Source: a virus. From it: 34,123 bases of DNA. The translations under genes were made by a program, and so were the position numbers. Positions 1,331 to 33,984 of this stretch are shown piece by piece; the stretch's first letter is position 1, and each line of letters begins with the position of its first letter. The notes under the pieces were generated by a model, which had not been told where the DNA came from, did not search any database, and was given only the letters and a program-made list of their open reading frames with translations. The stretch lies in UHGV virus genome UHGV-1338014, one strand, 5' to 3'.

Positions 1331-3319
1331 ATGAAAGAATGGTATACAGCAAAAGAGTTGCTCGGTTTGGCAGGTTTACCAAAGCAAGCCACTAACATTA
1401 CACGTAAGGCACAAAGAGAAGGCTGGGAGTTCAGGCAGGTTGCAGGAACTAAAGGTGTATCATTTGAATTCAATATCAAATCATTTCCTGTCACATTACG
1501 TGCTGAAATTCTGTTGCAACAAGGGAGAATTGAAACAAGCCAAGGGTATTTTGAAATCGCCCGCCCCACGCTGGAAGCCCACGATTATGATCGCGAGGCG
1601 CTGTGGAGCAAATGGGATAACGCCAGCGATTCCCAGCGCAGACTTGCTGAAAAATGGTTGCCTGCGGTTCAGGCTGCAGACGAAATGCTGAACCAGGGGA
1701 TTTCAACGAAAACGGCTTTTGCGACCGTTGCAGGGCATTACCAGGTCAGCGCATCCACTTTGCGGGACAAGTATTACCAGGTACAGAAGTTTGCGAAACC
1801 TGACTGGGCGGCTGCACTTGTTGATGGACGTGGAGCATCCCGTCGCAATGTTCACAAAAGTGAATTTGACGAGGATGCCTGGCAGTTTCTGATTGCAGAT
1901 TATCTGCGACCGGAAAAGCCCGCCTTCCGCAAATGTTATGAGCGTCTGGAACTGGCAGCCCGCGAGCATGGCTGGAGTATTCCCTCCCGTGCCACGGCCT
2001 TTCGCCGGATTCAGCAACTGGACGAGGCAATGGTTGTTGCCTGTCGTGAAGGTGAACATGCACTGATGCATCTGATACCAGCACAGCAGCGAACTGTGGA
2101 ACACCTGGACACCATGCAGTGGATCAACGGCGACGGTTATCTGCATAACGTCTTTGTACGCTGGTTTAACGGTGATGTGATCCGTCCAAAAACATGGTTC
2201 TGGCAGGATGTGAAAACCCGAAAAATTCTGGGCTGGCGCTGCGATGTGAGCGAGAACATTGATTCAATTCGCCTCTCGTTCATGGATGTTGTGACTCGCT
2301 ACGGTATCCCGGAGGATTTTCACATCACCATTGATAACACCCGTGGTGCTGCGAATAAATGGCTGACGGGAGGCGCGCCCAATCGCTACCGCTTTAAGGT
2401 AAAAGAGGACGATCCAAAAGGACTGTTTTTACTGATGGGTGCGAAAATGCACTGGACAAGCGTTGTTGCCGGTAAAGGCTGGGGCCAGGCAAAACCTGTT
2501 GAACGTGCTTTCGGTGTTGGTGGGCTTGAGGAATACGTTGATAAGCATCCGGCACTGGCTGGTGCATATACGGGGCCAAATCCGCAGGCAAAACCTGATA
2601 ACTATGGCGACCGCGCTGTTGATGCAGAGCTGTTTCTGAAAACCCTTGCCGAAGGTGTGGCGATGTTCAATGCCAGAACAGGCCGTGAAACAGAAATGTG
2701 CGGGGGCAAACTCTCGTTTGATGATGTTTTCGAGCGTGAATACGCCAGAACGATTGTGCGTAAGCCAACCGAAGAACAAAAACGGATGCTGTTACTGCCT
2801 GCCGAGGCGGTGAACGTTTCACGCAAAGGCGAGTTTACGCTTAAAGTTGGCGGCTCCCTTAAAGGCGCGAAAAACGTTTATTACAACATGGCGTTAATGA
2901 ATGCCAATGTGAAAAAAGTTGTGGTCAGGTTTGATCCACAGCAGTTACACAGCACGGTTTATTGTTACACCTTGGATGGTCGGTTTATATGTGAAGCGGA
3001 ATGTCTGGCACCTGTTGCATTTAATGATGCTGCGGCAGGCCGCGAATATCGCCGCCGCCAGAAACAACTGAAATCTGCAACTAAAGCAGCCATTAAGGCG
3101 CAGAAGCAAATGGACGCGCTGGAAGTTGCTGAACTGCTGCCGCAGATAGCCGAACCAGCAGCGCCAGAATCAAGGGTTGTTGGTATTTTCCGGCCTTCCG
3201 GTAACACGGTGCAGGTGAAATACCAGGAACCCGATGATGAATATGAAACTGATCGTGATGAATATCTGAATCATTCGCTGGATATTCTGGAACAGAACAG
3301 ACGTAAAAAAGCCATTTAA
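1331..3319 (+). CDS. A: DDE transposase MuA (662 aa)
   Basis: Size and position as Mu A; N-terminal winged-helix end-binding region, central DDE core region, C-terminal basic tail; translation closely resembles Mu A as I recall it. Confidence 0.95.
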
Positions 3320-3357: not shown

Positions 3358-4296
3358 ATGAATATTTCCGATATTCGCGCAGGACTGCGCACGCTTGTAG
3401 AAAGTGAAAAAGCGACTTATGCACAAATTGCACGCGAGTCTGGCGTGGCCGCAGGAACGTTAAGCGCATTCGTGAATAACAAGTACAACGGCGACAATGA
3501 ACGTGTTGCGCAGACGCTGGAACGCTGGCTGGAGAACTATCACCGTGCCGCAGAGCTGCCAGAACCACCACGTTTTGTGGAAACCAGAACAGCACGCCAA
3601 ATCTGGACGAGTATGCGTTTTGCCAGCCTGACTGAAAGTATTTCTGTTATCTGCGGTAATCCAGGTGTGGGAAAAACTGAAGCGGCCCGCGAATTTCGTC
3701 GCACCAATAACAATGTCTGGATGATCACCATTACCCCATCCTGTGCCAGTGTTCTGGAATGCCTGACTGAACTGGCTTATGAACTGGGAATGAATGACGC
3801 ACCACGCCGTAAGGGGCCACTCTCCCGCGCTTTGAGACGCCGTCTTGAAGGTACGCAGGGGCTGGTCATTATCGACGAAGCTGATCATCTTGGCGCTGAG
3901 GTTCTGGAAGAACTCCGCCTGTTACAGGAGTCCGCCCGTATTGGCCTTGTTCTGATGGGGAATCACCGCGTTTATTCAAACATGACCGGTGGTAACAGAA
4001 CGGTTGAATTTGCCCGACTGTTTTCCCGTATTGCCAAACGGACGGCAATCAATAAAACCAAAATTGATGATGTAAAGGCCATTGCGGATGCCTGGCAGAT
4101 TACCGGCGAAAATGAGCGGGAATTATTACAGCAGATTGCGCAAAAACCAGGTGCGCTTCGCATCCTGAACCACTCGCTGCGCCTTGCGTCCATGACCGCC
4201 CACGGCAAAGGTGAACGTGTTAATGAAGATTATCTGCGTCAGGCTTTCCGTGAATTAGACCTGGACGTTGATATTTCAACTCTGCTGCGCACGTAA
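3358..4296 (+). CDS. B: Transposition target-DNA activator MuB (AAA+ ATPase, 312 aa)
   Basis: Directly downstream of A; Walker A motif GNPGVGKT and Walker B-like VIIDEAD; length as Mu B. Confidence 0.93.
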
Positions 4297-6770: not shown

Positions 6771-7160
6771 ATGAATAACGCAGAGAAAAATGAAATTCAA
6801 TCCACATCTGTCACTACCAGAAAACATCTTTATGATTTTTATGTCGCCTATAACCAGTGGTTAAAAAATGGTGCACCAGAAACAGAGGGGGAATTATTTG
6901 TCCGGTATTTTGGATTATGTAGCAATGCTTATAGTTATTTCGAATCCATCGGAGCATACGGCGAAGATGCAGCAGAACAATTGCGCACAGATTTTATCGC
7001 GAACGGACTGGATGAATTATTGCCTTTCAATGAGGACAGCGCGCACTACAAGGAAGAGTGCAGGTTTGAAAGGTGTCACCTGAATCTTGGTCGTGTGGCA
7101 TGGGTGGAAAAACACTGCATGAAGGAGATGGGGCAAAATGAGTCGCACATCCCTGATTAA
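6771..7160 (+). CDS. Hypothetical protein, AT-rich gene (129 aa from ATG 6771; frame open from GTG 6738)
   Basis: Visibly lower GC than neighbours; GAAGAGG RBS before ATG 6771; 3' end overlaps the gemA start. Confidence 0.5.
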   Translation: MNNAEKNEIQSTSVTTRKHLYDFYVAYNQWLKNGAPETEGELFVRYFGLCSNAYSYFESIGAYGEDAAEQLRTDFIANGLDELLPFNEDSAHYKEECRFERCHLNLGRVAWVEKHCMKEMGQNESHIPD

Positions 7161-7689
7161 ATTAATTCATGTCGCCCGGCGTGATCTACAACTCGACGAT
7201 GACACTTACCGCGCCTTTCTGGTGCAGTTCACGGGCAAAACCAGTTGCCGCGAGCTGACCGTCGCACAACTGGAACAGGTGCTCGATGCCATGAAAGAGC
7301 GCGGTTTTAAGAAGCAGAAAAAACATCCCCGCCGTCGCTTTAAGGGGCATGTCACACCGCGTGAGAAGATTTATAAAATCTGGCAGCAGATGTTTCAGGA
7401 TGGCTTTGTCGCTGATGGCAGTGATGCTGCGCTGGACAAATACGTTGCACGCCTGACGGCCAGACGTAATGGCGGTCAGGGTGTTTCCACGCTGGCCTGG
7501 TGTCACGGGGAATCGTTGCATGTTGTGCTCGAAACGCTCAAACAGTGGCATATGCGCTGCATCCGGGACGCCTTTGCCCGACATGGTGTGCCTTTACCTG
7601 TGAGCGAAACCGGGCGGGAGCTGCGCGGCTATGATGCACTGACCAGTGCGTATGCCCGCGCACGAAACAGCGGGAGAATTGCTGTATGA
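7138..7689 (+). CDS. gemA: GemA-like early protein (183 aa)
   Basis: Length matches Mu GemA and it sits immediately upstream of the Mor/C-family gene with start/stop overlap. Confidence 0.75.
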   Translation: MSRTSLIKLIHVARRDLQLDDDTYRAFLVQFTGKTSCRELTVAQLEQVLDAMKERGFKKQKKHPRRRFKGHVTPREKIYKIWQQMFQDGFVADGSDAALDKYVARLTARRNGGQGVSTLAWCHGESLHVVLETLKQWHMRCIRDAFARHGVPLPVSETGRELRGYDALTSAYARARNSGRIAV

Positions 7690-8096
7690 AACAGATGAAA
7701 GAGCAGGATTTATTCGAAGACTTCCGGGACGACAGTGTTCTGGAATATCTTCACGATTATCAGGAAAAATATGTTTACCCGGCGCTACTTTCAGAGCTGA
7801 ATGCTCTGCTGCGACAGGAACTGATAAGGCTTGGTGTTAACCCTGCCCACTCTCTTGAGCTGGTAGTGGCAATTTGCAATCATATCGGAGGGATTCAGGT
7901 ATATGTTCCGAAAGGGAAAATACTGGAAAATCTGATCAGAGACATGCGCATCTGGCGTGATTTTGATGGAAAAAACGTAGCAGAGTTGGTGCAGCGTTAC
8001 AAAGTGACCTACAAAACGGTATATCAGGCCATCAAAAGAATGCGAAGGCTGGAGCGTGGAAAATATCAAATGCAACTATTTAAGGATGAGCCATGA
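7686..8096 (+). CDS. mor: Mor/C-family transcriptional activator (136 aa)
   Basis: C-terminal region (HSLELVVAICNHIGGIQVYVPKG...NVAELVQRYKVTYKTVYQAIKRMRR) fits the Mor/C activator family; called mor rather than C because it directly follows gemA. Confidence 0.7.
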   Translation: MKQMKEQDLFEDFRDDSVLEYLHDYQEKYVYPALLSELNALLRQELIRLGVNPAHSLELVVAICNHIGGIQVYVPKGKILENLIRDMRIWRDFDGKNVAELVQRYKVTYKTVYQAIKRMRRLERGKYQMQLFKDEP

Positions 8097-8572
8097 AATA
8101 CTTTCCTCTTATGTTTTTACTGAGCGTATTTTGCGCTAATGCGGCAAAGCTGCCCTCTGAAGAGGTAATCAAAAAACGCCTGGCCGAAAAAGACCTCATT
8201 GCACTAAATAGCTGGAAGCCTCTTAAAGGGGGCGATTCAATTAAGAACGGTGGAACCGAAACTGCTCACAGCAAGTTTGGATTGTTTATGATTAATAATA
8301 AGGTCGTTAGTTCAACGACGACTGTAAAAGATTTTGATGATAATCCTGTAGGCGCTCTGCCCTCCTTTGCTGCATGTTCGCGGGTTGTTGAATCTGTAAT
8401 TGGTCAATTAACTGAAGAACAGCAGGAACGAGTTATTGACATGGTGGCTTCCGCAGCAAAAGTTAAAGGTTACGGACTAACGTATAAGATTCTGGGCTTT
8501 CACATTCAGACAAAGTTTCTCCCTATGGGGAAAAATATGATGATAGATTGCTCCATCAAAGGTGATGAGTAG
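8093..8572 (+). CDS. Secreted or periplasmic protein of unknown function (159 aa), AT-rich gene
   Basis: N-terminus MKYFPLMFLLSVFCANA|AK is a classical signal peptide (basic residue, hydrophobic core, A-x-A site); the ATG overlaps the stop of the upstream activator gene; followed by a strong intrinsic terminator. Confidence 0.6.
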   Translation: MKYFPLMFLLSVFCANAAKLPSEEVIKKRLAEKDLIALNSWKPLKGGDSIKNGGTETAHSKFGLFMINNKVVSSTTTVKDFDDNPVGALPSFAACSRVVESVIGQLTEEQQERVIDMVASAAKVKGYGLTYKILGFHIQTKFLPMGKNMMIDCSIKGDE

Positions 8573-8593
8573 TCATCTTTTTTAATTCAATGA

Positions 8594-8616
8594 AGCCGGT
8601 AAATCCGGCTTTTTTT
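8594..8616 (+). terminator. Rho-independent terminator (AGCCGG-TAAAT-CCGGCT plus T7)
   Basis: GC stem, 5-nt loop and a run of seven T directly after the stop of the 8093..8572 ORF; an identical copy lies at 16155..16177. Confidence 0.75.
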
Positions 8617-8671
8617 ATGCCTCCGGCACTATGAAGCAGACCACGTTTAAATCTGCTTCACAGGTGCTTTT

Positions 8672-9268
8672 ATGGAAAATCAAAAATTCTCCCCGGCCTT
8701 TGAACATGCGCTGAATTTTATTCAGCGTCCCGATATCGAAGGCGTCTATGTCAATGACCCCACTGACCGTGGCGGCGAAACCAAATACGGCATTTCTGAC
8801 CGCCGCGACGGTGTGATTGACGGCAAAACCGATGTCAGCGGCGACGGTAAACCGGATACCCGCATCAGGGATTTAACCCGCGAACAGGTCGCGCAGATTT
8901 ACTGGCGCGATTACTGGCTGCCTGCCGGATGTGATCAGTGGCCTGATGGCGTGGCGATCTTTGTGTTCGATGCAGCCGTTCAGCATGGCGTTAAAAAAGC
9001 TATCAGGATTTTGCAGGAAGCCGCTGATGTGGATGCTGACGGCATCATCGGCCCGCGTACCCGTAAGGCCGTGAGTCTGTCCACCCCGGACTGGTTGCTG
9101 GCCCGCTGCATTGTCCGTCGTTCCCGCTTTTATGCCGACATCATCAAGTCAAAACCCGCCCAGGGTAAATACCTGAACGGCTGGTTTAACCGCATGGAAA
9201 AGCTGACCGACGCCTGTCTGGAAATCATCGATACCCCTTTAGGCATCATGTCCGCCACGCGGGGGTGA
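8672..9268 (+). CDS. lys: Putative endolysin (GH108-like lysozyme domain plus peptidoglycan-binding domain, 198 aa)
   Basis: N-terminal DPTDRGGETKYGI and C-terminal DGIIGPRT motifs are typical of the GH108 / PG_binding_3 architecture; first gene after the terminator, in the Mu lys position. Confidence 0.7.
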   Translation: MENQKFSPAFEHALNFIQRPDIEGVYVNDPTDRGGETKYGISDRRDGVIDGKTDVSGDGKPDTRIRDLTREQVAQIYWRDYWLPAGCDQWPDGVAIFVFDAAVQHGVKKAIRILQEAADVDADGIIGPRTRKAVSLSTPDWLLARCIVRRSRFYADIIKSKPAQGKYLNGWFNRMEKLTDACLEIIDTPLGIMSATRG

Positions 9269-9269
9269 T

Positions 9270-9497
9270 ATGGGTAAAGGCTGGGATGCCTCGCTGAGAG
9301 CCGGGCGGCGTGACCGCCTGCGTCAGGAGGTTTTACATCGTATGGCCGGAGGTCCGCCGCCAGAGCCGGTGGACTATACCGGTCATGACGGTACACACGC
9401 CAGCTACTACATGCGTGGCTGGAACTCCGTGGATACACGGGACATTTTCTGGCAGTGCCAGAAGTACAAGGAAAAACTCAATGCACAGAATGAATAG
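9270..9497 (+). CDS. Hypothetical small protein (75 aa), lysis region
   Basis: ORF starting 1 nt after the lys stop; no transmembrane segment; function unknown. Confidence 0.4.
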   Translation: MGKGWDASLRAGRRDRLRQEVLHRMAGGPPPEPVDYTGHDGTHASYYMRGWNSVDTRDIFWQCQKYKEKLNAQNE

Positions 9498-9891: not shown

Positions 9892-10487
9892 CCCTTTCAG
9901 GCATCGCCTCTGTTCTGCTGAAAGCCGGGCCGGGGCTGATTCGTTCCGTCGGGCGCTGGTTTGGTGGTAGCACATCTGCCGCCGCTGACTCGGTGGCCGG
10001 TATGGTGGAAAGCGTCCGGGAAAGCCTGCCGGTTACCGAACAGCAACGCATTCTGGAACAACAACTGACGGCGTTGTCACCGGAGCAACTGATGCAACTG
10101 GAAACGCTGAAAGTCCAGTTACAACAGCTTGAGGTGGAACGGCAGAAGCTGGTGCTGGCTGACGAGCAGGCCGCGCATCACGAACAGCAGGAAACCATCC
10201 GCAATGGTGACAACGCTGCGGACAGCTATGTGCGCCAGACGCGCCCGCTGCTGGCCCGTCTTTCCTGTTACAGCAGTCTGACCTATGTGCTGTTGCTCTC
10301 CTGTGGCCAGATTGCCGGAGCCATTGCCGGTGCCAGAGGTATCACACTGCATATGCCGTCACCGGACTGGGATATCACGCTGATGTTGCTTACCCCGGCG
10401 CTGGGCTATCTCGGAGTAAGAACCATGGACGGCTTTGCCCGGTACAGCAAATCGAGCCGTCACAAAATCTCTGCGGGGCCGAAATGA
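9879..10487 (+). CDS. Hypothetical protein with coiled-coil middle region and C-terminal hydrophobic segments (202 aa)
   Basis: ORF overlapping neighbours in the lysis/early-late region; possibly lysis-associated. Confidence 0.5.
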   Translation: MDPLTLSGIASVLLKAGPGLIRSVGRWFGGSTSAAADSVAGMVESVRESLPVTEQQRILEQQLTALSPEQLMQLETLKVQLQQLEVERQKLVLADEQAAHHEQQETIRNGDNAADSYVRQTRPLLARLSCYSSLTYVLLLSCGQIAGAIAGARGITLHMPSPDWDITLMLLTPALGYLGVRTMDGFARYSKSSRHKISAGPK

Positions 10488-10711
10488 CCGACGAAATCGA
10501 CCGCATCAGTGAAGTGGTTATGAACGAACGTCAGAGCGTCGTTAACGCCTGGCAGACGCGGACAAAAGAAGCGCCCCATAGTCGGGGCTGCTGCAATGAC
10601 TGTGGGAACGTTATTCCGGCACAACGCCTTGCGGCGCTGCCGGATGTGGTGACCTGTATTGACTGTCAGCATATTCGGGAACGCAGGAGGAAAACGTGTC
10701 CTGGGAAATGA
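10484..10711 (+). CDS. TraR/DksA-family C4 zinc-finger protein (75 aa)
   Basis: CNDCGNVIPAQR...CIDCQ four-cysteine motif characteristic of phage TraR/DksA-like proteins. Confidence 0.7.
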   Translation: MTDEIDRISEVVMNERQSVVNAWQTRTKEAPHSRGCCNDCGNVIPAQRLAALPDVVTCIDCQHIRERRRKTCPGK

Positions 10712-13687: not shown

Positions 13688-15255
13688 ACCTGAAACAACT
13701 GGCCGGAGCCGTTCGCCGTCTGCTGAACCCGGCAACCGGTGAGGAAGATACGCTGAAAAAAGAGAGGCTCGATGAAGTACAGGCCCGTCCGCGTCAGGCA
13801 GGTGTGCGCTCGGCCTCGCCGGGCATCAGTATCGCTTCCGGGCTGAATCCCGGCAGGCTGGCAGGTATTCTGCGCAATGCTGCCGACGGTATCACACGTG
13901 ATTTTTTTATCCTTGCCGAAGAGATGGAAGAACGCGATTTGCATTACGCTTCGGTGTTGCGCACCCGCAAGCTGACGGTAGCCGGTATCGAACCGGTGGT
14001 GGTTGCCGCCAGTGATGACGATGCCGACGTGCAGCTGGCGGACGCCATCCGGGCGCTGATGGACGCTCCGCAAATTCCCGAACTGTTGTTTGATTTGCTC
14101 GACGGGCTGGGAAAAGGTGTGGCGGTCTGTGAAATTCTCTGGAACACCCGCAACAACCACTGGGTGCCCCGTGATTATGAGTGGGTTGATCCCCGTTTTC
14201 TGAAAGCCGAAAAGCCCACGCTGCGCCAGTTCCGCCTGCTGACTGACGATGAGCCGGTGGATGGCGTACCGCTGACACCGGGAAAATTCATTGTTCACCA
14301 GCCGCGTCTGAAATCCGGTCTGCCGCTGCGTAACGGTCTGGCCCGTCTGGTGGCGGTAATGTACATGCTGAAATCCTTTACCGTACGTGACTGGTGGGCA
14401 TTTGCGGAAAAATTCGGCATTCCGGTCACGGTGGGGAAATACGGCCCCAACGCCACGGAGGAGCAAATCCGCGTGCTGATTGACGCGATTGCCTCCATTG
14501 CCTCGGATGCCGGGTGTGCCATTCCGCAGTCCATGCAACTGGAGATGCAGGAAACCGCCAGCCGGAATAACGGCGGTGCACTGTTCCGTGAAATGGCGGA
14601 ATGGTGTGATGCGCAAATCAGTAAGGCTGTGCTGGGGCAGACCATGACCACGGATAACGGCAGTTCGCGTTCACAGGCGGACGTGCACAATCAGGTGCGC
14701 ATGGACATTGTGCGCTGGGATGCGCGGCAGCTGGCTAACACGCTGAACGAATATCTGGTACGTCCCTACATCGAGGCCAACTACGGGCCACAGGCGCACT
14801 ACCCCCGTGTTGTTCTGCGTATCAGTGAAGCAGAAGATCTGAAGGCGCTGACAGACGCCGTCGTGCCGCTGATTGACCGGGGGCTGCGGGTTCAGGAATC
14901 GGAGCTGCGGGACCGGTTCGGTTTTGCTGAACCGGATGAAGGGGCGGAAGTTCTGCATCCTGTGTCTGCCGGGGTGCCAGGTGATATGGCGATGAACCGT
15001 GAGCGCGTCGCCCTGAACCGGGAACACCCCGACGAACTGGCACAGATGGTGGATGATGCCCTGCGTGACTGGCAGAAAACCGGCGAGGCGTTCACGAACC
15101 CGGTGCTGACACTGGCGCAGGAATGCGACAGTTTTGATGACTTTCTGAAACGCCTGCCTGAGCTTCAGGAAACGCTGAACGCGGACGACTTTGCCCTGCA
15201 ACTGGCAGAGGTGTGCTTTAAGGCGCGAGCACTGGGAGACACTGCTCATGCGTGA
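13684..15255 (+). CDS. Portal protein, Mu gp29-like (523 aa)
   Basis: Size and position directly after large terminase with overlap. Confidence 0.85.
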   Translation: MNLKQLAGAVRRLLNPATGEEDTLKKERLDEVQARPRQAGVRSASPGISIASGLNPGRLAGILRNAADGITRDFFILAEEMEERDLHYASVLRTRKLTVAGIEPVVVAASDDDADVQLADAIRALMDAPQIPELLFDLLDGLGKGVAVCEILWNTRNNHWVPRDYEWVDPRFLKAEKPTLRQFRLLTDDEPVDGVPLTPGKFIVHQPRLKSGLPLRNGLARLVAVMYMLKSFTVRDWWAFAEKFGIPVTVGKYGPNATEEQIRVLIDAIASIASDAGCAIPQSMQLEMQETASRNNGGALFREMAEWCDAQISKAVLGQTMTTDNGSSRSQADVHNQVRMDIVRWDARQLANTLNEYLVRPYIEANYGPQAHYPRVVLRISEAEDLKALTDAVVPLIDRGLRVQESELRDRFGFAEPDEGAEVLHPVSAGVPGDMAMNRERVALNREHPDELAQMVDDALRDWQKTGEAFTNPVLTLAQECDSFDDFLKRLPELQETLNADDFALQLAEVCFKARALGDTAHA

Positions 15256-16012
15256 AACCCTCATCCCGAAAGAGGTGCTGGCGTGGCTGAAGGCGAAGAA
15301 GCTGCGCCCCGGTTTTGATTACCGGGATGTGTGGCGGGAAGAACACCGGAACAGCTTCACCGTGGCAAAAATGCTGCAACTGGATTTGTTGTCGGATGTG
15401 AAAGCCCTTGTGGAAGACGCCCTGCAAAGCGGGCAGACGTTCAGTGAGTTCCGGGAGGCGCTGCAACCGCTGCTGATAAAACGCGGATGGTGGGGCGTAC
15501 AGGAGATGGATGATCCGCTGACAGGAGAAACGCGCACCGTACAGCTGGGCAGCGACCGCCGCCTCCGCACGATTTTTGATACCAACATGCGCACCGCCCG
15601 CGCAGCGGGCCAGTGGGAACGCATTCAGCGGACAAAACGGGCCATGCCGTATCTGATTTACGAGCTGGGGCCATCCCGCGAGCACCGGGCGGAGCATGTG
15701 AAATGGGCGCGTCTGTGTCTGCCGGTAGATCATCCGTTCTGGCAGACGCATTTTGCCCCTAACGGCTGGGGCTGTAAATGCACCATCCGTCAGGTCAGCC
15801 GTGGTGAATATGCGCAACTGGCGGCACAGGGCACCATTCACACCGAAGCGCCGGAAATCAGAACTGTCCGCTGGGTGAACAAACGCACGGGCGAAGAGGA
15901 AGATGTGCCGGAAGGGATTGATCCGGGCTGGAACTACAATCCCGGCATAAACCGTGAGCAGGAGCTGGCGCGCCAGCTGGCGACAAAACAGGCCCGTTTT
16001 GACAGTGAATAA
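15248..16012 (+). CDS. F: Head morphogenesis protein, Phage_Mu_F domain (about 255 aa)
   Basis: Motif REHRAEHVKWARLCLPVDHPFWQTHFAPNGWGCKCTIRQV fits the Mu F / SPP1 gp7 family; ATG 15248 overlaps the portal stop. It looks shorter than I would expect for Mu F, which I cannot verify. Confidence 0.75.
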   Translation: MRETLIPKEVLAWLKAKKLRPGFDYRDVWREEHRNSFTVAKMLQLDLLSDVKALVEDALQSGQTFSEFREALQPLLIKRGWWGVQEMDDPLTGETRTVQLGSDRRLRTIFDTNMRTARAAGQWERIQRTKRAMPYLIYELGPSREHRAEHVKWARLCLPVDHPFWQTHFAPNGWGCKCTIRQVSRGEYAQLAAQGTIHTEAPEIRTVRWVNKRTGEEEDVPEGIDPGWNYNPGINREQELARQLATKQARFDSE

Positions 16013-16226
16013 CCCTCCCGCCGTAAATCCCCCTGAAATGCATCAGAAACGCGTTTTTTATTCTGATGGCATGAATGTGCATTCTGACGTTTTTGAAGGC
16101 GCTGTGGCGTTTTTGAAGGGGTTTTGAAGGGGGTATTCTTCCCGTTTTCAGTGAAGCCGGTAAATCCGGCTTTTTTTCTGCCTTCCGCATACTGACCGTC
16201 AGTAACCCCAAACGACGGAGACTGAC
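16013..16226. promoter_or_regulatory. Central non-coding spacer: inverted repeat, three tandem (T)TTTGAAGG repeats, terminator, then late promoter region for gene I; candidate strong gyrase site
   Basis: No ORF; IR CATCAGAA-N12-TTCTGATG at 16041..16068; CGTTTTTGAAGG / CGTTTTTGAAGG / GTTTTGAAGG between about 16091 and 16134; terminator at 16155..16177. The gyrase-site idea rests only on position near the genome centre. Confidence 0.45.
16155..16177 (+). terminator. Rho-independent terminator, identical copy of the 8594..8616 hairpin
   Basis: Same AGCCGGTAAATCCGGCTTTTTTT sequence, downstream of F and upstream of I. Confidence 0.75.
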
Positions 16227-17189
16227 ATGCAACCGGAACTGCTGGCGCTGTGTTTTTCCCTGCCAGAACCCATCAATGAGCTGACACCCGCTCAACTGCC
16301 GGAATGGCTTGAACTCGTCCCTGCGGGTGAGTTCACCGGGCGCGATGGCCGGACGTGGATTAACCGCAATCCACATGAGGTGGTTGCCCGTTCGTCCGAC
16401 ATCAAAATTCCGGTGGACATTGAACACGCCACCGAAATTAAAGGCCCGCGGGGTGAAGATGCTCCGGCGTATGGCTGGGTGGAGGAACTGCGGGTGACGG
16501 ACAGCAGCACCATTGAAGGCCGTGTTGTCTGGAGTGAGTCCGCCCGGTGGATGCTGAGCGAGCGCCGCTACCGCTATTACAGCCCGGCGTTTTTCTTTGA
16601 CGCGGACGGTGCGGTGACACGCCTGTCCAGCGTCGGGCTGACCAACAAACCTAACCTGGATTTTCCTGCACTGAATACGGAGAAAAACCCGATGACAGTA
16701 CCTGTGCAAATCACCGGCCTGCTTGGGCTGGCTGAATCCGCCACGGTGGACGATACCGTGGCCGCCATTAAACAACTTCAGGAGAACGAACAGGTGGCGC
16801 TGAACCGCGCACAGACACCTGATCTGACGAAGTTTGTGCCGGTGGAAACCCACAATCTGGCACTGAACCGTGCCGAAACCGCAGAACAACGCCTTCAGCA
16901 ACTGGAAGCTAAGGAAGCAGAAGCGCTTGTGGATGCGGCCATCGAAGCCGGAAAAGTGGCCCCGGCAAACCGTGACATGTTCCTTGCCACCTGCCGTACG
17001 GAAGAAGGCCGCAAACAGTTTGCGGAGTACACCAGAGGTGCACAGCCGCTGGTGAACAACGACAAGCCCAGCCAGGGCAAGGATAAACCCGCGCAGACAC
17101 TGACCGACGCCGAACTGGCGATGTGCCGCAGCATGGGTATTACCGGGGAAGAGTTCCTCGCCGCTAAACCAAAACAGGAGAATAACTGA
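16227..17189 (+). CDS. I: Head maturation protease / scaffold, Mu I-like (320 aa)
   Basis: Position before the major head gene; Ala/Glu-rich coiled-coil C-terminal half typical of scaffold. Confidence 0.8.
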   Translation: MQPELLALCFSLPEPINELTPAQLPEWLELVPAGEFTGRDGRTWINRNPHEVVARSSDIKIPVDIEHATEIKGPRGEDAPAYGWVEELRVTDSSTIEGRVVWSESARWMLSERRYRYYSPAFFFDADGAVTRLSSVGLTNKPNLDFPALNTEKNPMTVPVQITGLLGLAESATVDDTVAAIKQLQENEQVALNRAQTPDLTKFVPVETHNLALNRAETAEQRLQQLEAKEAEALVDAAIEAGKVAPANRDMFLATCRTEEGRKQFAEYTRGAQPLVNNDKPSQGKDKPAQTLTDAELAMCRSMGITGEEFLAAKPKQENN

Positions 17190-18091
17190 TGGGAGCAGTC
17201 ACTTCCGAAGTCCTTCACGCGCTGACCACCTGTCTGAGCGCCGCTTATACCCGTGGTCTGAGTGGTGTCACCCCACAGTGGCAGCGTATCGCCTCTGAAA
17301 TCCCGAGTTCGTCCGCCTCCAATACCTACGGCTGGATGAAGGATTTACCGGAGATTAAAGAATGGGTCAGCGCCCGTCAGATGGCAACGCTGGACGGTTA
17401 TGGTTACACCCTTGCGAACAAAACCTGGGAAAGTTCGATCCGCGTTAAACGCGAACACATTGAAGACGATCAGATTGGTCAGTACAGCATTATCGCTGAA
17501 CGCTATGGCCGCCAGACGTCGGAGTTCCCGGACAAGCTGTGTTACCCCCTGCTGTGTGCCGGGTTTAACACCCTGTGTTTTGACGGTCAGAACTTCTTTG
17601 ATGAAGACCACCCGCTGGGCGACGGCACCTGCAGCAACGTTGTCGGCACCCCGGCATCAGACCAGGGAGAACCGTGGTTCCTGATTGATGATTCTCAGGT
17701 ACTGAAACCCATCATCTGGCAGACGCGACGCGCCTTTAAGTTTGAAGCCCTGGATGATCTGAACAGCGAGCACACCTTCAAGAATAACGAGTTCCTTTAC
17801 GGGGTGGACGGTCGCTGCAATGCGGGCTTTGGCTTCTGGCAGACCGCCGTCGGTTCCCGTGCGGCACTGACAGCGGAGAACTACGAGAAGGCCAGCAATC
17901 TGCTGCTGGGTATGAAGACCACCAACGGTGAACCGCTGGGCATCCGCCCGACCACCCTTGTGGTGGGACCGAAAAATCGCGCGGCTGCGAAGCGCATCAT
18001 TGACGCCATGCTGGTAAACGGCGGCGATTCCAACATCTGGTACAAGGATGTGGACATCGTGGTCAGTCCGTTCATCACCACCCCGGCATAA
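17189..18091 (+). CDS. T: Major head (capsid) protein, Mu T-like (300 aa)
   Basis: Size and position after protease/scaffold; start overlaps the I stop. Confidence 0.85.
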   Translation: MGAVTSEVLHALTTCLSAAYTRGLSGVTPQWQRIASEIPSSSASNTYGWMKDLPEIKEWVSARQMATLDGYGYTLANKTWESSIRVKREHIEDDQIGQYSIIAERYGRQTSEFPDKLCYPLLCAGFNTLCFDGQNFFDEDHPLGDGTCSNVVGTPASDQGEPWFLIDDSQVLKPIIWQTRRAFKFEALDDLNSEHTFKNNEFLYGVDGRCNAGFGFWQTAVGSRAALTAENYEKASNLLLGMKTTNGEPLGIRPTTLVVGPKNRAAAKRIIDAMLVNGGDSNIWYKDVDIVVSPFITTPA

Positions 18092-18117
18092 CCCGTCATC
18101 CGTAATCTGTAACCCGC

Positions 18118-18149
18118 AGTTAAAAGGCGCTATGAATGCCCTTTTAACT
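18118..18149 (+). terminator. Stem-loop downstream of major capsid gene (AGTTAAAAGG...CCTTTTAACT)
   Basis: 10-bp inverted repeat about 27 nt after the T stop, followed by TTTTAAAA; possible attenuator or mRNA-stabilising hairpin. Confidence 0.4.
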
Positions 18150-18169
18150 GCCTTTTAAAAGGCAGAGTC

Positions 18170-22472: not shown

Positions 22473-22558
22473 CCTGTCTTCGCGATTCAGCATTCAGTAC
22501 CTGGAACAGCTGCCCCTGCGGCAGCTGTTCCGCCTGATAAAGCAACTGGAGAAACAGC

Positions 22559-26762: not shown

Positions 26763-27289
26763 GCGCAATTACCCGCCGTCTGCGGCTGATGGTTGACCGT
26801 GCCATTGTCCGCATGGTGTCTGACAGTCTGGAGCGGCAGAACCTGCAAATCCAGACGCTGGCAGATGCCACCGATGACGACGTGGAACGCTTCCAGAATT
26901 ACGGTTTTACTTCCGTTCCGCCGGAAGGTTCTGAAGCCATAGTGCTGGCCGTTGGCGGACGGCGTGACGGGCTGGTTGCCATCGCAGTGGAGGACAAGCG
27001 ATGTCGCCCTAAAGGCCTGTCTCCCGGCGACGTCCGACTGTATCACCGGGACGGAAAATCACACATCACCCTGAAGGAAAACGGCGTTATTGAAATAACA
27101 GGGGAACAATTAGACGTTTCAGGGACAACGGTAAATCTCACCGCCGACGAATTGCTGAATATTATCGGTAAACAAATGAAATTCGTCGGTCCCTGTGAAT
27201 TTACTGAAGATGTCACCATCAACGGTAAATCTTTCAGCAATCATATTCATAAGGACGGCGACAATGAGAAGACATCACCGCCCGTATGA
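26753..27289 (+). CDS. Baseplate spike / assembly protein V-like, Mu gp45 (178 aa)
   Basis: Size, position and beta-rich composition typical of gpV-like spike proteins. Confidence 0.65.
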   Translation: MGLSAITRRLRLMVDRAIVRMVSDSLERQNLQIQTLADATDDDVERFQNYGFTSVPPEGSEAIVLAVGGRRDGLVAIAVEDKRCRPKGLSPGDVRLYHRDGKSHITLKENGVIEITGEQLDVSGTTVNLTADELLNIIGKQMKFVGPCEFTEDVTINGKSFSNHIHKDGDNEKTSPPV

Positions 27290-32963: not shown

Positions 32964-33003
32964 CTCAAAAAAGGTTAATAATTAAGCGTTTTGTATAGAT
33001 TAT

Positions 33004-33100
33004 GACGATCGATACCATCATATCGATCGTCGTTTTACATCATGTGTGGTTAAATATCCCCAGCCCTCCGGGTGGTCGTATCTGGTTATTACACAGGGGG
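33004..33100 (+). promoter_or_regulatory. com-mom regulatory region with a perfect 11-bp palindrome carrying two GATC sites
   Basis: GACGATCGATA-N6-TATCGATCGTC at 33004..33031 (GATC at 33007..33010 and 33025..33028), followed by the promoter region and the com RBS. Mu mom is known to be controlled by Dam methylation upstream of its promoter. Confidence 0.6.
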
Positions 33101-33104
33101 AATC

Positions 33105-33290
33105 ATGGACTCTGTTCGCTGTAAAAACTGCAATAAGTTACTGTTTAAAGGAGGTTTTAAGCATATAGAAATTAAATGCCCTCGCTGTAAACGTTACATT
33201 GTCATATCGAATGCCAAAGAGCATCCCACGGAGCTGTATTGTGGGAAAAGAGAAGAAATCACGCATTCTGACAAAACCCTGCGTTATTGA
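33105..33290 (+). CDS. com: Com, zinc-finger translational activator of mom (61 aa)
   Basis: CKNC...CPRC zinc-finger motif; small ORF overlapping the 5' end of mom; AGGGGG RBS before ATG 33105. Confidence 0.85.
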
Positions 33291-33936
33291 GTATGAAGGC
33301 CGGATTGTCGGCTATGGTTCAAAGGAGTTGCGCGTTGAAACCATATCCTGCTGGCTGGCCCGCACAATCATTCAGACAAAGCATTATTCCCGCCGTTTTG
33401 TGAATAACTCCTACCTGCATCTGGGCGTATTCAGCGGACGTGATCTGGTTGGCGTTCTTCAGTGGGGATATGCCCTTAATCCCAACTCAGGGCGTCGTGT
33501 CGTGCTTGAAACAGATAACCGGGGTTACATGGAACTGAACCGCATGTGGTTACACGACGACATGCCCCGCAATTCTGAATCACGGGCCATCAGCTACGCG
33601 CTGAAAACCATCAGGTTACTGTATCCGTCAGTGGAGTGGGTTCAGTCCTTTGCAGACGAACGCTGCGGGCGTGCTGGCGTGGTATATCAGGCGTCGAATT
33701 TTGATTTTATTGGTAGCCATGAAAGCACATTCTACGAACTGGACGGCGAGTGGTATCACGAGATAGCGATGAACGCGATTAAGCGCGGAGGTCAACGAGG
33801 CGAGTATTTGCGGGCTAATAAGGAACGGGCAGTGGTACACAAATTTAATCAATATCGCTACATCAGGTTCCTGAACAAGCGCGCAAGAAAACGCCTAAAC
33901 ACCAAACTATTCAGGGTTCAGCCATACCCGAAGTGA
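33199..33936 (+). CDS. mom: Mom DNA-modification protein (anti-restriction adenine modification)
   Basis: Last gene before the right end, overlapping com. The frame is open from 33199, but the real start may be the internal GTG at 33241, which would give 231 aa. Confidence 0.85.
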
Positions 33937-33957
33937 CCCCACGTTATGAATAAAAAA

Positions 33958-33984
33958 ACAGCGGTTAATGCCGCTGTTTCGTTT
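33958..33984 (+). terminator. Terminator-like hairpin after mom (ACAGCGG-TTAATG-CCGCTGT, A-run upstream and T-rich downstream)
   Basis: 7-bp GC-rich stem about 22 nt after the mom stop, flanked by A7 and TTTCGTTT. Confidence 0.6.

What the first reader, a model, noticed from the sequence alone, without database searches (positions are those of the whole stretch)
8591..8616. Two identical copies of the same intrinsic terminator precede two late operons
The 26-bp sequence TGAAGCCGGTAAATCCGGCTTTTTTT occurs at 8591..8616 and again at 16152..16177, with near-identical flanks (CAATGAAGCC versus CAGTGAAGCC). One copy is upstream of lys and the other upstream of I. Exact duplication of a non-coding element 7.5 kb apart suggests a modular terminator-promoter cassette or a recombination-prone repeat.
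Basis: seen in the sequence. Interest (0 to 1): 0.45.

Follow-up and report, generated by a model that had tools for sequence, protein, structure and literature searches.

The report
Duplicated Mor-dependent promoter with built-in terminator
The two identical "terminators" are two copies of the phage Mu middle-promoter module (an activator-binding site overlapping a terminator hairpin), used in this Mu-like E. coli prophage, which lacks Mu's second activator C, to switch on both late gene blocks directly.

Summary
The 26-mer occurs exactly twice (8591-8616, 16152-16177; 0 expected by chance), inside a 43-nt block that is 91% identical.

The window is a whole Mu-like prophage. The repeat is homologous to Mu's middle promoter Pm. 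Transferring Mu's numbering, each copy holds a Mor site (-51..-36), a hairpin 3' arm plus T7, and an nAnnnT -10 at Mu's spacing.

The prophage has one Mor gene, just upstream of copy 1, and no C gene.

- In relatives found through the Mor protein alone, the mor-proximal copy keeps a perfect hairpin and T-run in 11/11 loci.
- The copy upstream of I keeps the Mor site and -10 in 9/9 loci, but an intact terminator in only 3/9.
- The TAAAT/TTAAT variant inside the Mor site matches between the two copies of one phage in 39/39 loci, despite several switches on the Mor tree.
- Phages that have C (Mu, vB_YpM_5) have a single Pm-type site.

So these are activator-dependent promoters with an overlapping terminator, in a two-tier cascade. 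No deletion between the copies was found in 46 E. coli genomes.

A lineage-specific inverted repeat spanning the predicted start site at both promoters remains unexplained.

This is a variant of a known kind and of moderate interest.

The parts
7686..8096 (+). mor: the only Mor/C-family activator gene of the prophage and the presumed reader of both sites
   Evidence: Pfam PF08765 Mor, E=6.7e-30. It is 60% identical to Mu Mor and 32% to Mu C, and tblastn finds no second homolog in the window. The near-identical prophage in E. coli TD225-C4 is annotated with a single Mor-family gene.
8093..8572 (+). orf159, the last gene of the early operon; its stop codon lies 20 nt before the copy-1 hairpin
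   Evidence: ORF list; no Pfam match; phrog_38744, function unknown.
8586..8628 (+). Copy 1 of the 43-nt repeated block (Pm positions about -54 to -12)
   Evidence: Repeat family D2, 91% identity; three-way alignment with Mu Pm.
8589..8604 (+). Copy 1 predicted Mor-binding site AATGA-AGCCGG-TAAAT (-51..-36)
   Evidence: Same register as Mu Pm AGTAA-AGCCGG-TTAAT (Mu 9173-9188), 13/16 identical. Mu site coordinates come from PMC4287176 and PMC4390567. Site matrix score 25.3 bits.
8592..8616 (+). Copy 1 terminator hairpin GAAGCCGG-TAAAT-CCGGCTTT (8592-8612), its T7 run ending at 8616; presumed terminator of the early transcript
   Evidence: A perfect stem and T-run are kept at this position in 11/11 protein-anchored relatives; by eye, 13/13.
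8627..8632 (+). Copy 1 predicted -10 hexamer CACTAT; predicted transcription start near 8640 (A)
   Evidence: Same distance from the Mor site (22 nt) as Mu's TATCCT. Relatives carry nAnnnT hexamers at this place.
8632..8660 (+). Inverted repeat TGAAGCAGA...TCTGCTTCA spanning the predicted start site, ending just before the AGGTG ribosome-binding site; function unexplained
   Evidence: An inverted repeat of at least 6 bp starts at -8..-4 in 33/44 distinct lys-type sequences, against 1.8 expected from shuffles.
8672..9268 (+). GH108 endolysin gene, first gene of the lysis/packaging operon driven by copy 1
   Evidence: Pfam Glyco_hydro_108 and PG_binding_3.
16147..16189 (+). Copy 2 of the 43-nt repeated block
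16150..16165 (+). Copy 2 predicted Mor-binding site AGTGA-AGCCGG-TAAAT (-51..-36)
   Evidence: 14/16 identical to the Mu Pm site; matrix score 25.5 bits. A site of this kind lies about 90 nt upstream of I in 9/9 protein-anchored relatives.
16153..16177 (+). Copy 2 terminator hairpin (16153-16173), its T7 run ending at 16177; presumed terminator of the lys-to-F transcript
   Evidence: At this position relatives keep an intact stem plus T-run in only 3/9 protein-anchored loci and 5/18 distinct sequences.
16188..16193 (+). Copy 2 predicted -10 hexamer CATACT; predicted transcription start near 16201 (A)
   Evidence: CATACT or CACACT is conserved upstream of I in diverged relatives.
16196..16217 (+). 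Inverted repeat CCGTC...GACGG spanning the predicted start site; its 3' arm overlaps the GGAG ribosome-binding site of I
   Evidence: 13/19 distinct I-type sequences have such a repeat, against 0.5 expected from shuffles; in close relatives it is 6 bp, CCGTCG/CGACGG.
16227..17189 (+). I (head protease/scaffold) gene, first gene of the head-tail operon driven by copy 2
   Evidence: Pfam Mu-like_Pro, E=2.4e-44.

Best explanation
Each copy is a composite regulatory module homologous to phage Mu's middle promoter Pm.

On the DNA, the 16 bp A(A/G)TGA-AGCCGG-TAAAT (-51..-36) is the binding site for the prophage's own Mor protein. Mor recruits sigma-70 RNA polymerase to a promoter that has a weak -10 (CACTAT or CATACT) and no -35. 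Predicted starts are near 8640 and 16201.

In RNA made from upstream, the same stretch plus its 3' arm and T7 folds into an intrinsic terminator. Copy 1 would stop the early transcript just before the endolysin gene. Copy 2 would stop the lys-to-F transcript.

Because this prophage has no C gene, Mor drives both late operons directly, giving a two-tier cascade instead of Mu's three tiers. The two copies stay alike because the same protein reads both. Their exact identity across the 3' arm and T-run probably also reflects selection for termination, short-patch gene conversion, or both.

Shown here: the identity of the copies, their homology and register with Mu Pm, the conservation and co-variation patterns, and the absence of C.

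Taken from the Mu literature: where and how Mor binds and activates.

Inferred: that this Mor binds these sites, and that the hairpins terminate transcription.
For: 1. The Mu sequence just after mor, CAGTAAAGCCGGTTAATCCGGCTTTTTTTACGTCCTCAATATCCT, aligns without gaps to both copies. The stated bases -57G and -54A (PMC4390567) fix Mu's +1 at 9224. That places the published Mor site (-51..-36, centre -43.5; PMC4287176) on AGTAAAGCCGGTTAAT and the -10 on TATCCT. A Pm cloning primer in PMC9239132 carries the same sequence.

2. The Mor gene lies 0.5 kb upstream of copy 1, and no second Mor/C homolog exists.

3. All 125 exact occurrences in viral contigs fall in three contexts: Mor to GH108 lys (88), F to I (22) and Mu-type Mor to gp18/19 (13).

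4. In protein-anchored relatives, the copy at I keeps the -51..-36 block and a CAyACT -10 in 9/9 loci, but an intact stem plus T-run in only 3/9. The mor-proximal copy is intact in 11/11. My hypergeometric calculation gives p of about 0.002.

5. The TAAAT/TTAAT variant, which is the right half-site of the Mor site, is the same in both copies of a phage in 39/39 loci. The variants are interleaved on the Mor tree, and Mor position K117 (K versus R) partly tracks them.

6. Phages with C (Mu, vB_YpM_5) have one Pm-type site and none at I. The C-less Klebsiella phage Kp4866-3 has two.

7. A site matrix scores 25.5 and 25.3 bits for the two copies, and 17 bits for the next best hit.
Against: - There is no transcript or binding data for this prophage.
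- The left half-site differs from Mu's (AATGA or AGTGA versus AGTAA), and the -10 hexamers are weak.
- The com/mom operon at the right end has no detectable Mor-type or C-type site, so the single-activator model does not yet explain every late gene.
- An inverted repeat across the predicted start site is not accounted for, and it could mean the start site differs from the Mu geometry.
- The matching variants between copies could partly come from gene conversion rather than selection by Mor.
Confidence: 0.8

Rival explanations
1. They are simply two copies of an intrinsic terminator with no promoter function. Late genes would be expressed from other promoters or by read-through.
For: The hairpin plus T7 is a textbook terminator motif. 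It is perfectly conserved after the early operon in relatives.
Against: Upstream of I, relatives lose the 3' arm and T-run but keep the 5' arm, the loop and a -10 at fixed spacing. The sequence is homologous to an experimentally defined promoter. No other promoter candidate lies between the hairpins and the genes. The loop sequence, which is irrelevant to a terminator, co-varies between the copies.
Confidence: 0.07
2. The identity of the two copies reflects recombination. The repeat would be a hot spot for deletion or inversion, or it is kept identical only by gene conversion, without shared function.
For: A 43-nt direct repeat 7.5 kb apart could support rare RecA-dependent events. In Brenneria, the I-copy of L154 resembles its own lys copy over -44..-14, while its close relative L156 differs. 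That fits short-patch conversion.
Against: 0 of 46 E. coli genomes carry the deletion junction. A deletion would remove terminase and portal genes. In phages where the 3' halves of the copies have diverged, the Mor-site variant still matches, which conversion alone does not explain.
Confidence: 0.08
3. It is a small mobile or repetitive palindromic element (REP- or MITE-like) that happened to land twice.
For: It is short, palindromic and repeated.
Against: All 125 occurrences in viral contigs are in Mu-like phages, in the same orientation, and in only three gene contexts. There are no further copies in the window, and Rfam has no match.
Confidence: 0.02

Closest known systems
Phage Mu middle promoter Pm (Mor-dependent), with the hairpin and T-run that immediately follow mor
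   Same: The core sequence is nearly the same (AAGCCGGT(T/A)AATCCGGCTTTTTTT). The position right after the mor-containing early operon is the same for copy 1. The spacing from the Mor site to the -10 is the same, there is no -35, and an A/T-rich stretch lies upstream (PMC4287176, PMC4390567).
   Different: In Mu there is one copy, and it drives the middle operon (gp18-20 and C). Here there are two copies. They drive the endolysin/packaging operon and the head-tail operon directly, and C is absent. The half-sites differ slightly (AATGA or AGTGA and TAAAT, versus AGTAA and TTAAT).
Phage Mu C-dependent late promoters Plys and PI
   Same: They sit at the same genomic positions (before the lysis gene and before I) and follow the same logic: a -10 without a -35, and an activator dyad centred near -43.5 (PMC2582627). 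Mu's Plys is also preceded by a hairpin directly after C.
   Different: Those are read by C, with consensus TTAT-N5-6-ATAA (PMC12867686). No such site lies at either copy, and there is no C gene. Mu has no Pm-like element upstream of I.
Rho-independent (intrinsic) terminators
   Same: A G+C-rich 8-bp stem, a 5-nt loop and T7, located after the last gene of the upstream operon.
   Different: The stem and loop double as an activator-binding site and the T-run as promoter spacer. At the I position the terminator part is dispensable in most relatives.
IS10/Tn10 fold-back inhibition of externally initiated transcripts (recalled from memory; compared only with the unexplained start-site inverted repeat)
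   Same: The 5' arm of an inverted repeat lies upstream of the element's own transcription start. A hairpin next to or over the ribosome-binding site could therefore form only in read-through transcripts.
   Different: This is untested here. At the lys copy the ribosome-binding site lies next to the stem rather than inside it. A function at the DNA level cannot be excluded.

Membership tests
Mu Pm-type, Mor-dependent promoter | A 16-bp imperfect dyad (5-bp arms with a G/C-rich 6-bp spacer) homologous to Mu Pm -51..-36 | tested here: met
   Copy 1 AATGAAGCCGGTAAAT (13/16) and copy 2 AGTGAAGCCGGTAAAT (14/16) against Mu AGTAAAGCCGGTTAAT, in the same register. Site definition from PMC4390567 and PMC4287176.
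Mu Pm-type, Mor-dependent promoter | A -10 hexamer at Pm spacing and no recognisable -35 | tested here: met
   CACTAT and CATACT lie 22 nt after the site, where Mu has TATCCT. The -35 region is CCGGCT. The sigma-70 consensus scan finds no promoter here.
Mu Pm-type, Mor-dependent promoter | A cognate Mor-family activator encoded by the same phage | tested here: met
   7686-8096: Pfam Mor, E=6.7e-30, 60% identical to Mu Mor.
Mu Pm-type, Mor-dependent promoter | An A/T-rich stretch just upstream of the Mor site (partial UP element for alpha-CTD) | tested here: inconclusive
   Copy 1 has TTTTTTAATTC (8578-8588). Copy 2 has CCCGTTTTC, which is less A/T-rich.
Mu Pm-type, Mor-dependent promoter | Mor binding and Mor-dependent transcription initiation | not testable with these tools
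   Needs footprinting or EMSA, reporter fusions and 5'-end mapping.
Intrinsic (Rho-independent) terminator | A stable G+C-rich stem-loop directly followed by a U-tract | tested here: met
   8-bp stem with 5 G-C pairs, loop of 5, T7. Folding energy -12.6 and -12.8 kcal/mol, z -3.2 and -3.5.
Intrinsic (Rho-independent) terminator | Structure conserved in relatives at the same position | tested here: met
   This applies to copy 1: 11/11 protein-anchored loci are intact (13/13 by eye). For copy 2's position only 3/9 loci are intact, with two compensatory stems (L148, L156) that lack a good T-run. So the terminator is conserved at mor and optional at I.
Intrinsic (Rho-independent) terminator | Transcript 3' ends map to the U-tract | not testable with these tools
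   Needs Term-seq or 3'-RACE.
Mu C-dependent late promoter (Plys/PI/PP/Pmom) | A C-binding dyad TTAT-N5-6-ATAA near -43.5 | tested here: not met
   The window has only two pattern matches (4461, 8286), neither at a late operon start. The strict pattern recovers only Pmom among Mu's four late promoters, so its sensitivity is limited.
Mu C-dependent late promoter (Plys/PI/PP/Pmom) | A C activator gene present in the phage | tested here: not met
   The Mu C query in tblastn hits only the mor gene, at 32% identity. The RefSeq annotation of the near-identical prophage lists a single Mor-family gene.

The most novel reading that the evidence does not exclude
The module has a third, undescribed layer. 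A lineage-specific inverted repeat starts right after the -10 and ends at the ribosome-binding site, at both Mor-dependent promoters and in most lineages. Its 5' arm lies upstream of the predicted start, so the hairpin would form only in transcripts that read through from upstream. Those transcripts would then be silenced or processed. Late genes, including the endolysin, would be guarded three ways: by a terminator, by activator dependence, and by fold-back of read-through RNA. In parallel, the TAAAT/TTAAT site variant and Mor residue K117/R may form a simple specificity code that keeps co-resident Mu-like phages from cross-activating each other.
Probability: 0.2. Interest if true: 0.55.

Novelty: new variant of a known kind. 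Interest (0 to 1): 0.4.

Why it matters
Mu's three-step early, middle, late cascade (Mor, then C) is a textbook case. These data indicate that a widespread clade of Mu-like phages uses a shortened two-step version. The clade was seen in Escherichia, Klebsiella, Raoultella, Serratia, Kluyvera, Pluralibacter, Brenneria and Trabulsiella. In it, the Pm module is duplicated and Mor alone drives the late operons.

It is also a compact example of one DNA stretch carrying two functions, a protein-binding site on DNA and a terminator in RNA. Comparing the two positions shows which function is under selection where.

In practice, annotating these hairpins as plain terminators would miss the late promoters of these prophages. 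The paired sites and the Mor variants give a ready system for testing activator specificity.

Tried and rejected
- Rfam scan of the whole window: no family matched.
- Search for a third or fourth copy, as equivalents of Mu's PP and Pmom: mismatch searches and a site matrix found nothing convincing. The best extra hit is 17 bits, on the wrong strand and without a -10. A 13-bit site at 27121 is too weak to call.
- Deletion between the copies: the junction query found no such prophage.
- C-type sites: none are relevant, and the strict pattern is insensitive even in Mu.
- Wobble-asymmetry test, to decide whether the start-site inverted repeat acts as RNA or DNA: uninformative, because the stems are almost perfectly Watson-Crick.
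- Older primary papers (Artsimovitch and Howe 1996; Mathee and Howe 1990) were not held, and a search for 't9.2' found nothing. My recollections that Mu's early transcript ends at this hairpin, and that Mu's lys transcript terminates between G and I, therefore remain unverified memory.
- The single-protein locus search with I returned mostly near-identical relatives. The unbiased sample came from a Mor alignment instead and holds only 13 loci.

Full report
**1. Observation**

The 26-mer TGAAGCCGGTAAATCCGGCTTTTTTT is present exactly at 8591-8616 and 16152-16177. No further match appears with up to 3 mismatches, and none in 100 shuffles. The similarity extends to 43 nt (8586-8628 and 16147-16189, 39/43 identical).

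Both copies are called terminator-like: an 8-bp stem with 5 G-C pairs, a 5-nt loop and T7. They fold at -12.6 and -12.8 kcal/mol, with z-scores of -3.2 and -3.5.

**2. Context**

The window is essentially a complete Mu-like prophage. Its genes are:
- Repressor region, then MuA (1331-3319) and MuB (3358-4296).
- GemA (7138-7689) and a Mor-family activator (7686-8096).
- orf159 (8093-8572), followed by copy 1.
- GH108 endolysin (8672-9268), a homolog of Mu gp18, a DUF2730 releasin-like gene and gp27.
- Terminase, portal and F (15191-16012), followed by copy 2.
- I protease (16227-17189), T capsid and the tail genes.
- Com and Mom (about 33105-33936).

A prophage whose 7600-9400 segment is 100% identical sits inside rlmB in E. 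coli TD225-C4, bounded by host genes. It is annotated with a single Mor-family gene. tblastn with Mu C finds only mor, at 32% identity. This phage therefore has Mor but no C.

**3. Homology to Mu Pm**

Directly after Mu's mor gene lies CAGTAAAGCCGGTTAATCCGGCTTTTTTTACGTCCTCAATATCCT. It aligns without gaps to both window copies.

The Howe-lab papers describe Pm as follows:
- A Mor dimer binds a 16-bp imperfect dyad at -51..-36, centred at -43.5, with 5-bp arms and a G/C-rich 6-bp spacer.
- There is a -10 but no -35.
- alpha-CTD binds an A/T-rich stretch just upstream (PMC4287176, PMC4390567).

A 2025 preprint reports tetrameric binding across two adjacent major grooves (10.1101/2025.05.02.651988).

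Using the stated bases -57G and -54A, Mu's +1 is position 9224. The Mor site is then AGTAA-AGCCGG-TTAAT (9173-9188) and the -10 is TATCCT. A published Pm cloning primer contains the same sequence.

In the same register the window gives:

| | Mor site (-51..-36) | -10 hexamer | Predicted +1 |
|---|---|---|---|
| Copy 1 | 8589-8604, AATGAAGCCGGTAAAT | 8627-8632, CACTAT | about 8640 |
| Copy 2 | 16150-16165, AGTGAAGCCGGTAAAT | 16188-16193, CATACT | about 16201 |

So the 5' stem arm is the spacer of the Mor dyad and the hairpin loop is its right half-site. The 3' arm plus T7 fill the -35 and spacer region.

**4. Distribution**

An exact scan of viral contigs with AAGCCGGTWAATCCGGCTTTTTT gave 125 occurrences, in only three contexts:
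- Mor (with or without orf159) followed by GH108 endolysin: 88.
- F followed by I: 22.
- The canonical Mu arrangement, Mor followed by gp18/19: 13.

The flanks are very diverse. Even so, an nAnnnT hexamer sits at a fixed distance: TATCCT, TATTCT, CACTAT, CACCAT, CATACT or CAAAAT. Only the Mu-type loci carry a second Mor/C-family gene, which is C.

**5. Unbiased test of what is conserved**

That scan required the hairpin to be exact, so loci were also collected through proteins.

The I protein search found diverged relatives (I 52-62% identical, GH108 endolysin, no C). Upstream of I these always keep the -51..-36 block and a CAyACT -10, but they often lose the 3' arm and T-run. One example is L055, AGTGAAGCCGGTTAATCCACCTGAGTCCCC.

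A Mor-alignment search of bacterial genomes returned 13 loci from Raoultella, Pluralibacter, Serratia, Klebsiella, Kluyvera, Brenneria and Trabulsiella.
- The mor-proximal element has a perfect hairpin and T7-8 in every one: 13/13 by eye, 11/11 by script.
- All 9 loci that reach I have a Pm-like element about 90 nt upstream of it, but only 3/9 keep an intact stem plus T-run. My hypergeometric calculation gives p of about 0.002.
- Two I-copies have compensatory stems, AACCGG/CCGGTT and GGCGG/CCGCC, but poor T-runs.

The reading is that termination is essential after the early operon, because the next gene is the endolysin. Before I it is optional, because the upstream genes are also late genes. 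Promoter function is required at both places.

**6. Co-variation**

The TAAAT or TTAAT variant, the right half-site of Mor, is identical in the two copies of the same phage in 39/39 loci (27 TAAAT, 12 TTAAT). L107 is also concordant by eye.

The variants are interleaved on a Mor neighbour-joining tree, so there were several switches. One recognition-helix-region position (window K117) is K in 32/32 TAAAT phages and R in 25/31 TTAAT phages. It lies next to the residue aligned with C R120, a reported DNA contact.

A terminator loop has no reason to co-vary in this way. A shared protein reader does, although gene conversion may contribute. In Brenneria, the I-copy of L154 resembles its own lys copy over -44..-14, unlike its relative L156.

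**7. Link to C**

Mu and the Muvirus vB_YpM_5 have Mor plus C, a single Pm-type site, and nothing Pm-like upstream of I. The C-less Klebsiella phage Kp4866-3 has two sites, and its I copy lacks a terminator.

In the window, the site matrix gives 25.5 and 25.3 bits for the two copies and 17 bits or less elsewhere.

**8. Rivals**

- A pure terminator is contradicted by points 5 and 6.
- A recombination hot spot: no deletion junction was found in 46 E. coli genomes.
- A mobile palindromic element: the contexts and orientation are fixed.
- Rfam has no match.

**9. Unexplained**

An inverted repeat starts right after the -10, at -8..-4, and ends at or just before the ribosome-binding site. In copy 1 it is TGAAGCAGA/TCTGCTTCA, 8632-8660. 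In copy 2 it is CCGTC/GACGG, 16196-16217.

It is present in 33/44 distinct lys-type sequences and 13/19 I-type sequences, against 1.8 and 0.5 in shuffles. Its sequence is lineage-specific and differs between the two promoters of one phage.

By the Mu geometry, its 5' arm is not in the promoter's own transcript. Three readings remain open:
- It could act only in read-through RNA.
- It could act on DNA.
- It could mean the start site differs from the prediction.

The wobble test could not decide between these.

It is also unclear how com/mom is activated without C.

**10. Verdict**

The terminator reading is half the story. The element is a duplicated Pm-type, Mor-dependent promoter with an overlapping terminator, in a C-less two-tier Mu-like cascade. 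This is a variant of a well-known system, supported by comparative evidence but with no direct transcript or binding data.

Noticed in passing
window 8632-8660 and 16196-16217; also the same position in most loci L002-L159: A lineage-specific inverted repeat begins immediately after the -10 hexamer and ends at or next to the ribosome-binding site, at both Pm-type promoters. It occurs in 33/44 and 13/19 distinct sequences, against about 1.8 and 0.5 in shuffles. Its 5' arm lies upstream of the predicted +1, so its function is unclear: fold-back of read-through RNA, a DNA dyad, or a shifted start site.
   Followed up: partly
window 16085-16135: Phased repeats of TTTTTGAAGG/TTTTGAAGG lie between F and I. 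Relatives carry TTTTAAACG repeats at the same place. Mu has GATTTTTTAAAACGCGCCACGGGATTTTTAAACC just right of its annotated strong gyrase cut site at 17879. This is probably the counterpart of Mu's central strong gyrase site.
   Followed up: no
window 32964-33936: A Com-like zinc-finger ORF (start about 33105) and a Mom-like gene are preceded by a GATC cluster, GACGATCGATACCATCATATCGATCGTCG, resembling Mu's Dam/OxyR-controlled mom region. No C-type or Mor-type site was detected upstream. How mom is activated in a phage without C is open.
   Followed up: partly
window 10484-10711: A TraR/DksA-type C4 zinc-finger protein (Pfam zf-dskA_traR, E=1.9e-10) is encoded inside the Mor-driven lysis/packaging operon. 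It might be an RNA-polymerase-binding modulator of late transcription.
   Followed up: no
window 27121-27136: A weak Mor-site-like sequence, AGGGACAACGGTAAAT (13.4 bits), lies inside the baseplate V-like gene, with TATTAT at promoter-like spacing downstream. It is possibly a weak internal promoter analogous to Mu's PP, or it is chance.
   Followed up: no
window 33955-33980: A strong hairpin, AAAACAGCGGTTAATGCCGCTGTTTC, follows mom at the right prophage end. On the minus strand it is followed by T7. It is likely a terminator that blocks host transcription from entering the prophage end. Its loop is again TTAAT.
   Followed up: no
L162 (Yersinia phage vB_YpM_5) 13801-16201: This looks like an intermediate architecture. 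Mu-type Mor and Pm are followed by a GH108 endolysin homolog and a gp18 homolog, then C, then the Mu-type lysozyme. The phage thus carries both endolysin types and both activators, which hints at how the C-less arrangement and Mu's arrangement are related.
   Followed up: partly
window 18092-18169 and 22473-22558: Intergenic hairpins follow the major capsid gene (TTAAAAGGCAG.../CTGCCTTTTAA-type) and the tail tube/chaperone genes (GGAACAGCTGCC...GGCAGCTGTTCC). Neither has a clear T-run. They may be transcript-stabilising or attenuating structures within the long head-tail operon.
   Followed up: no
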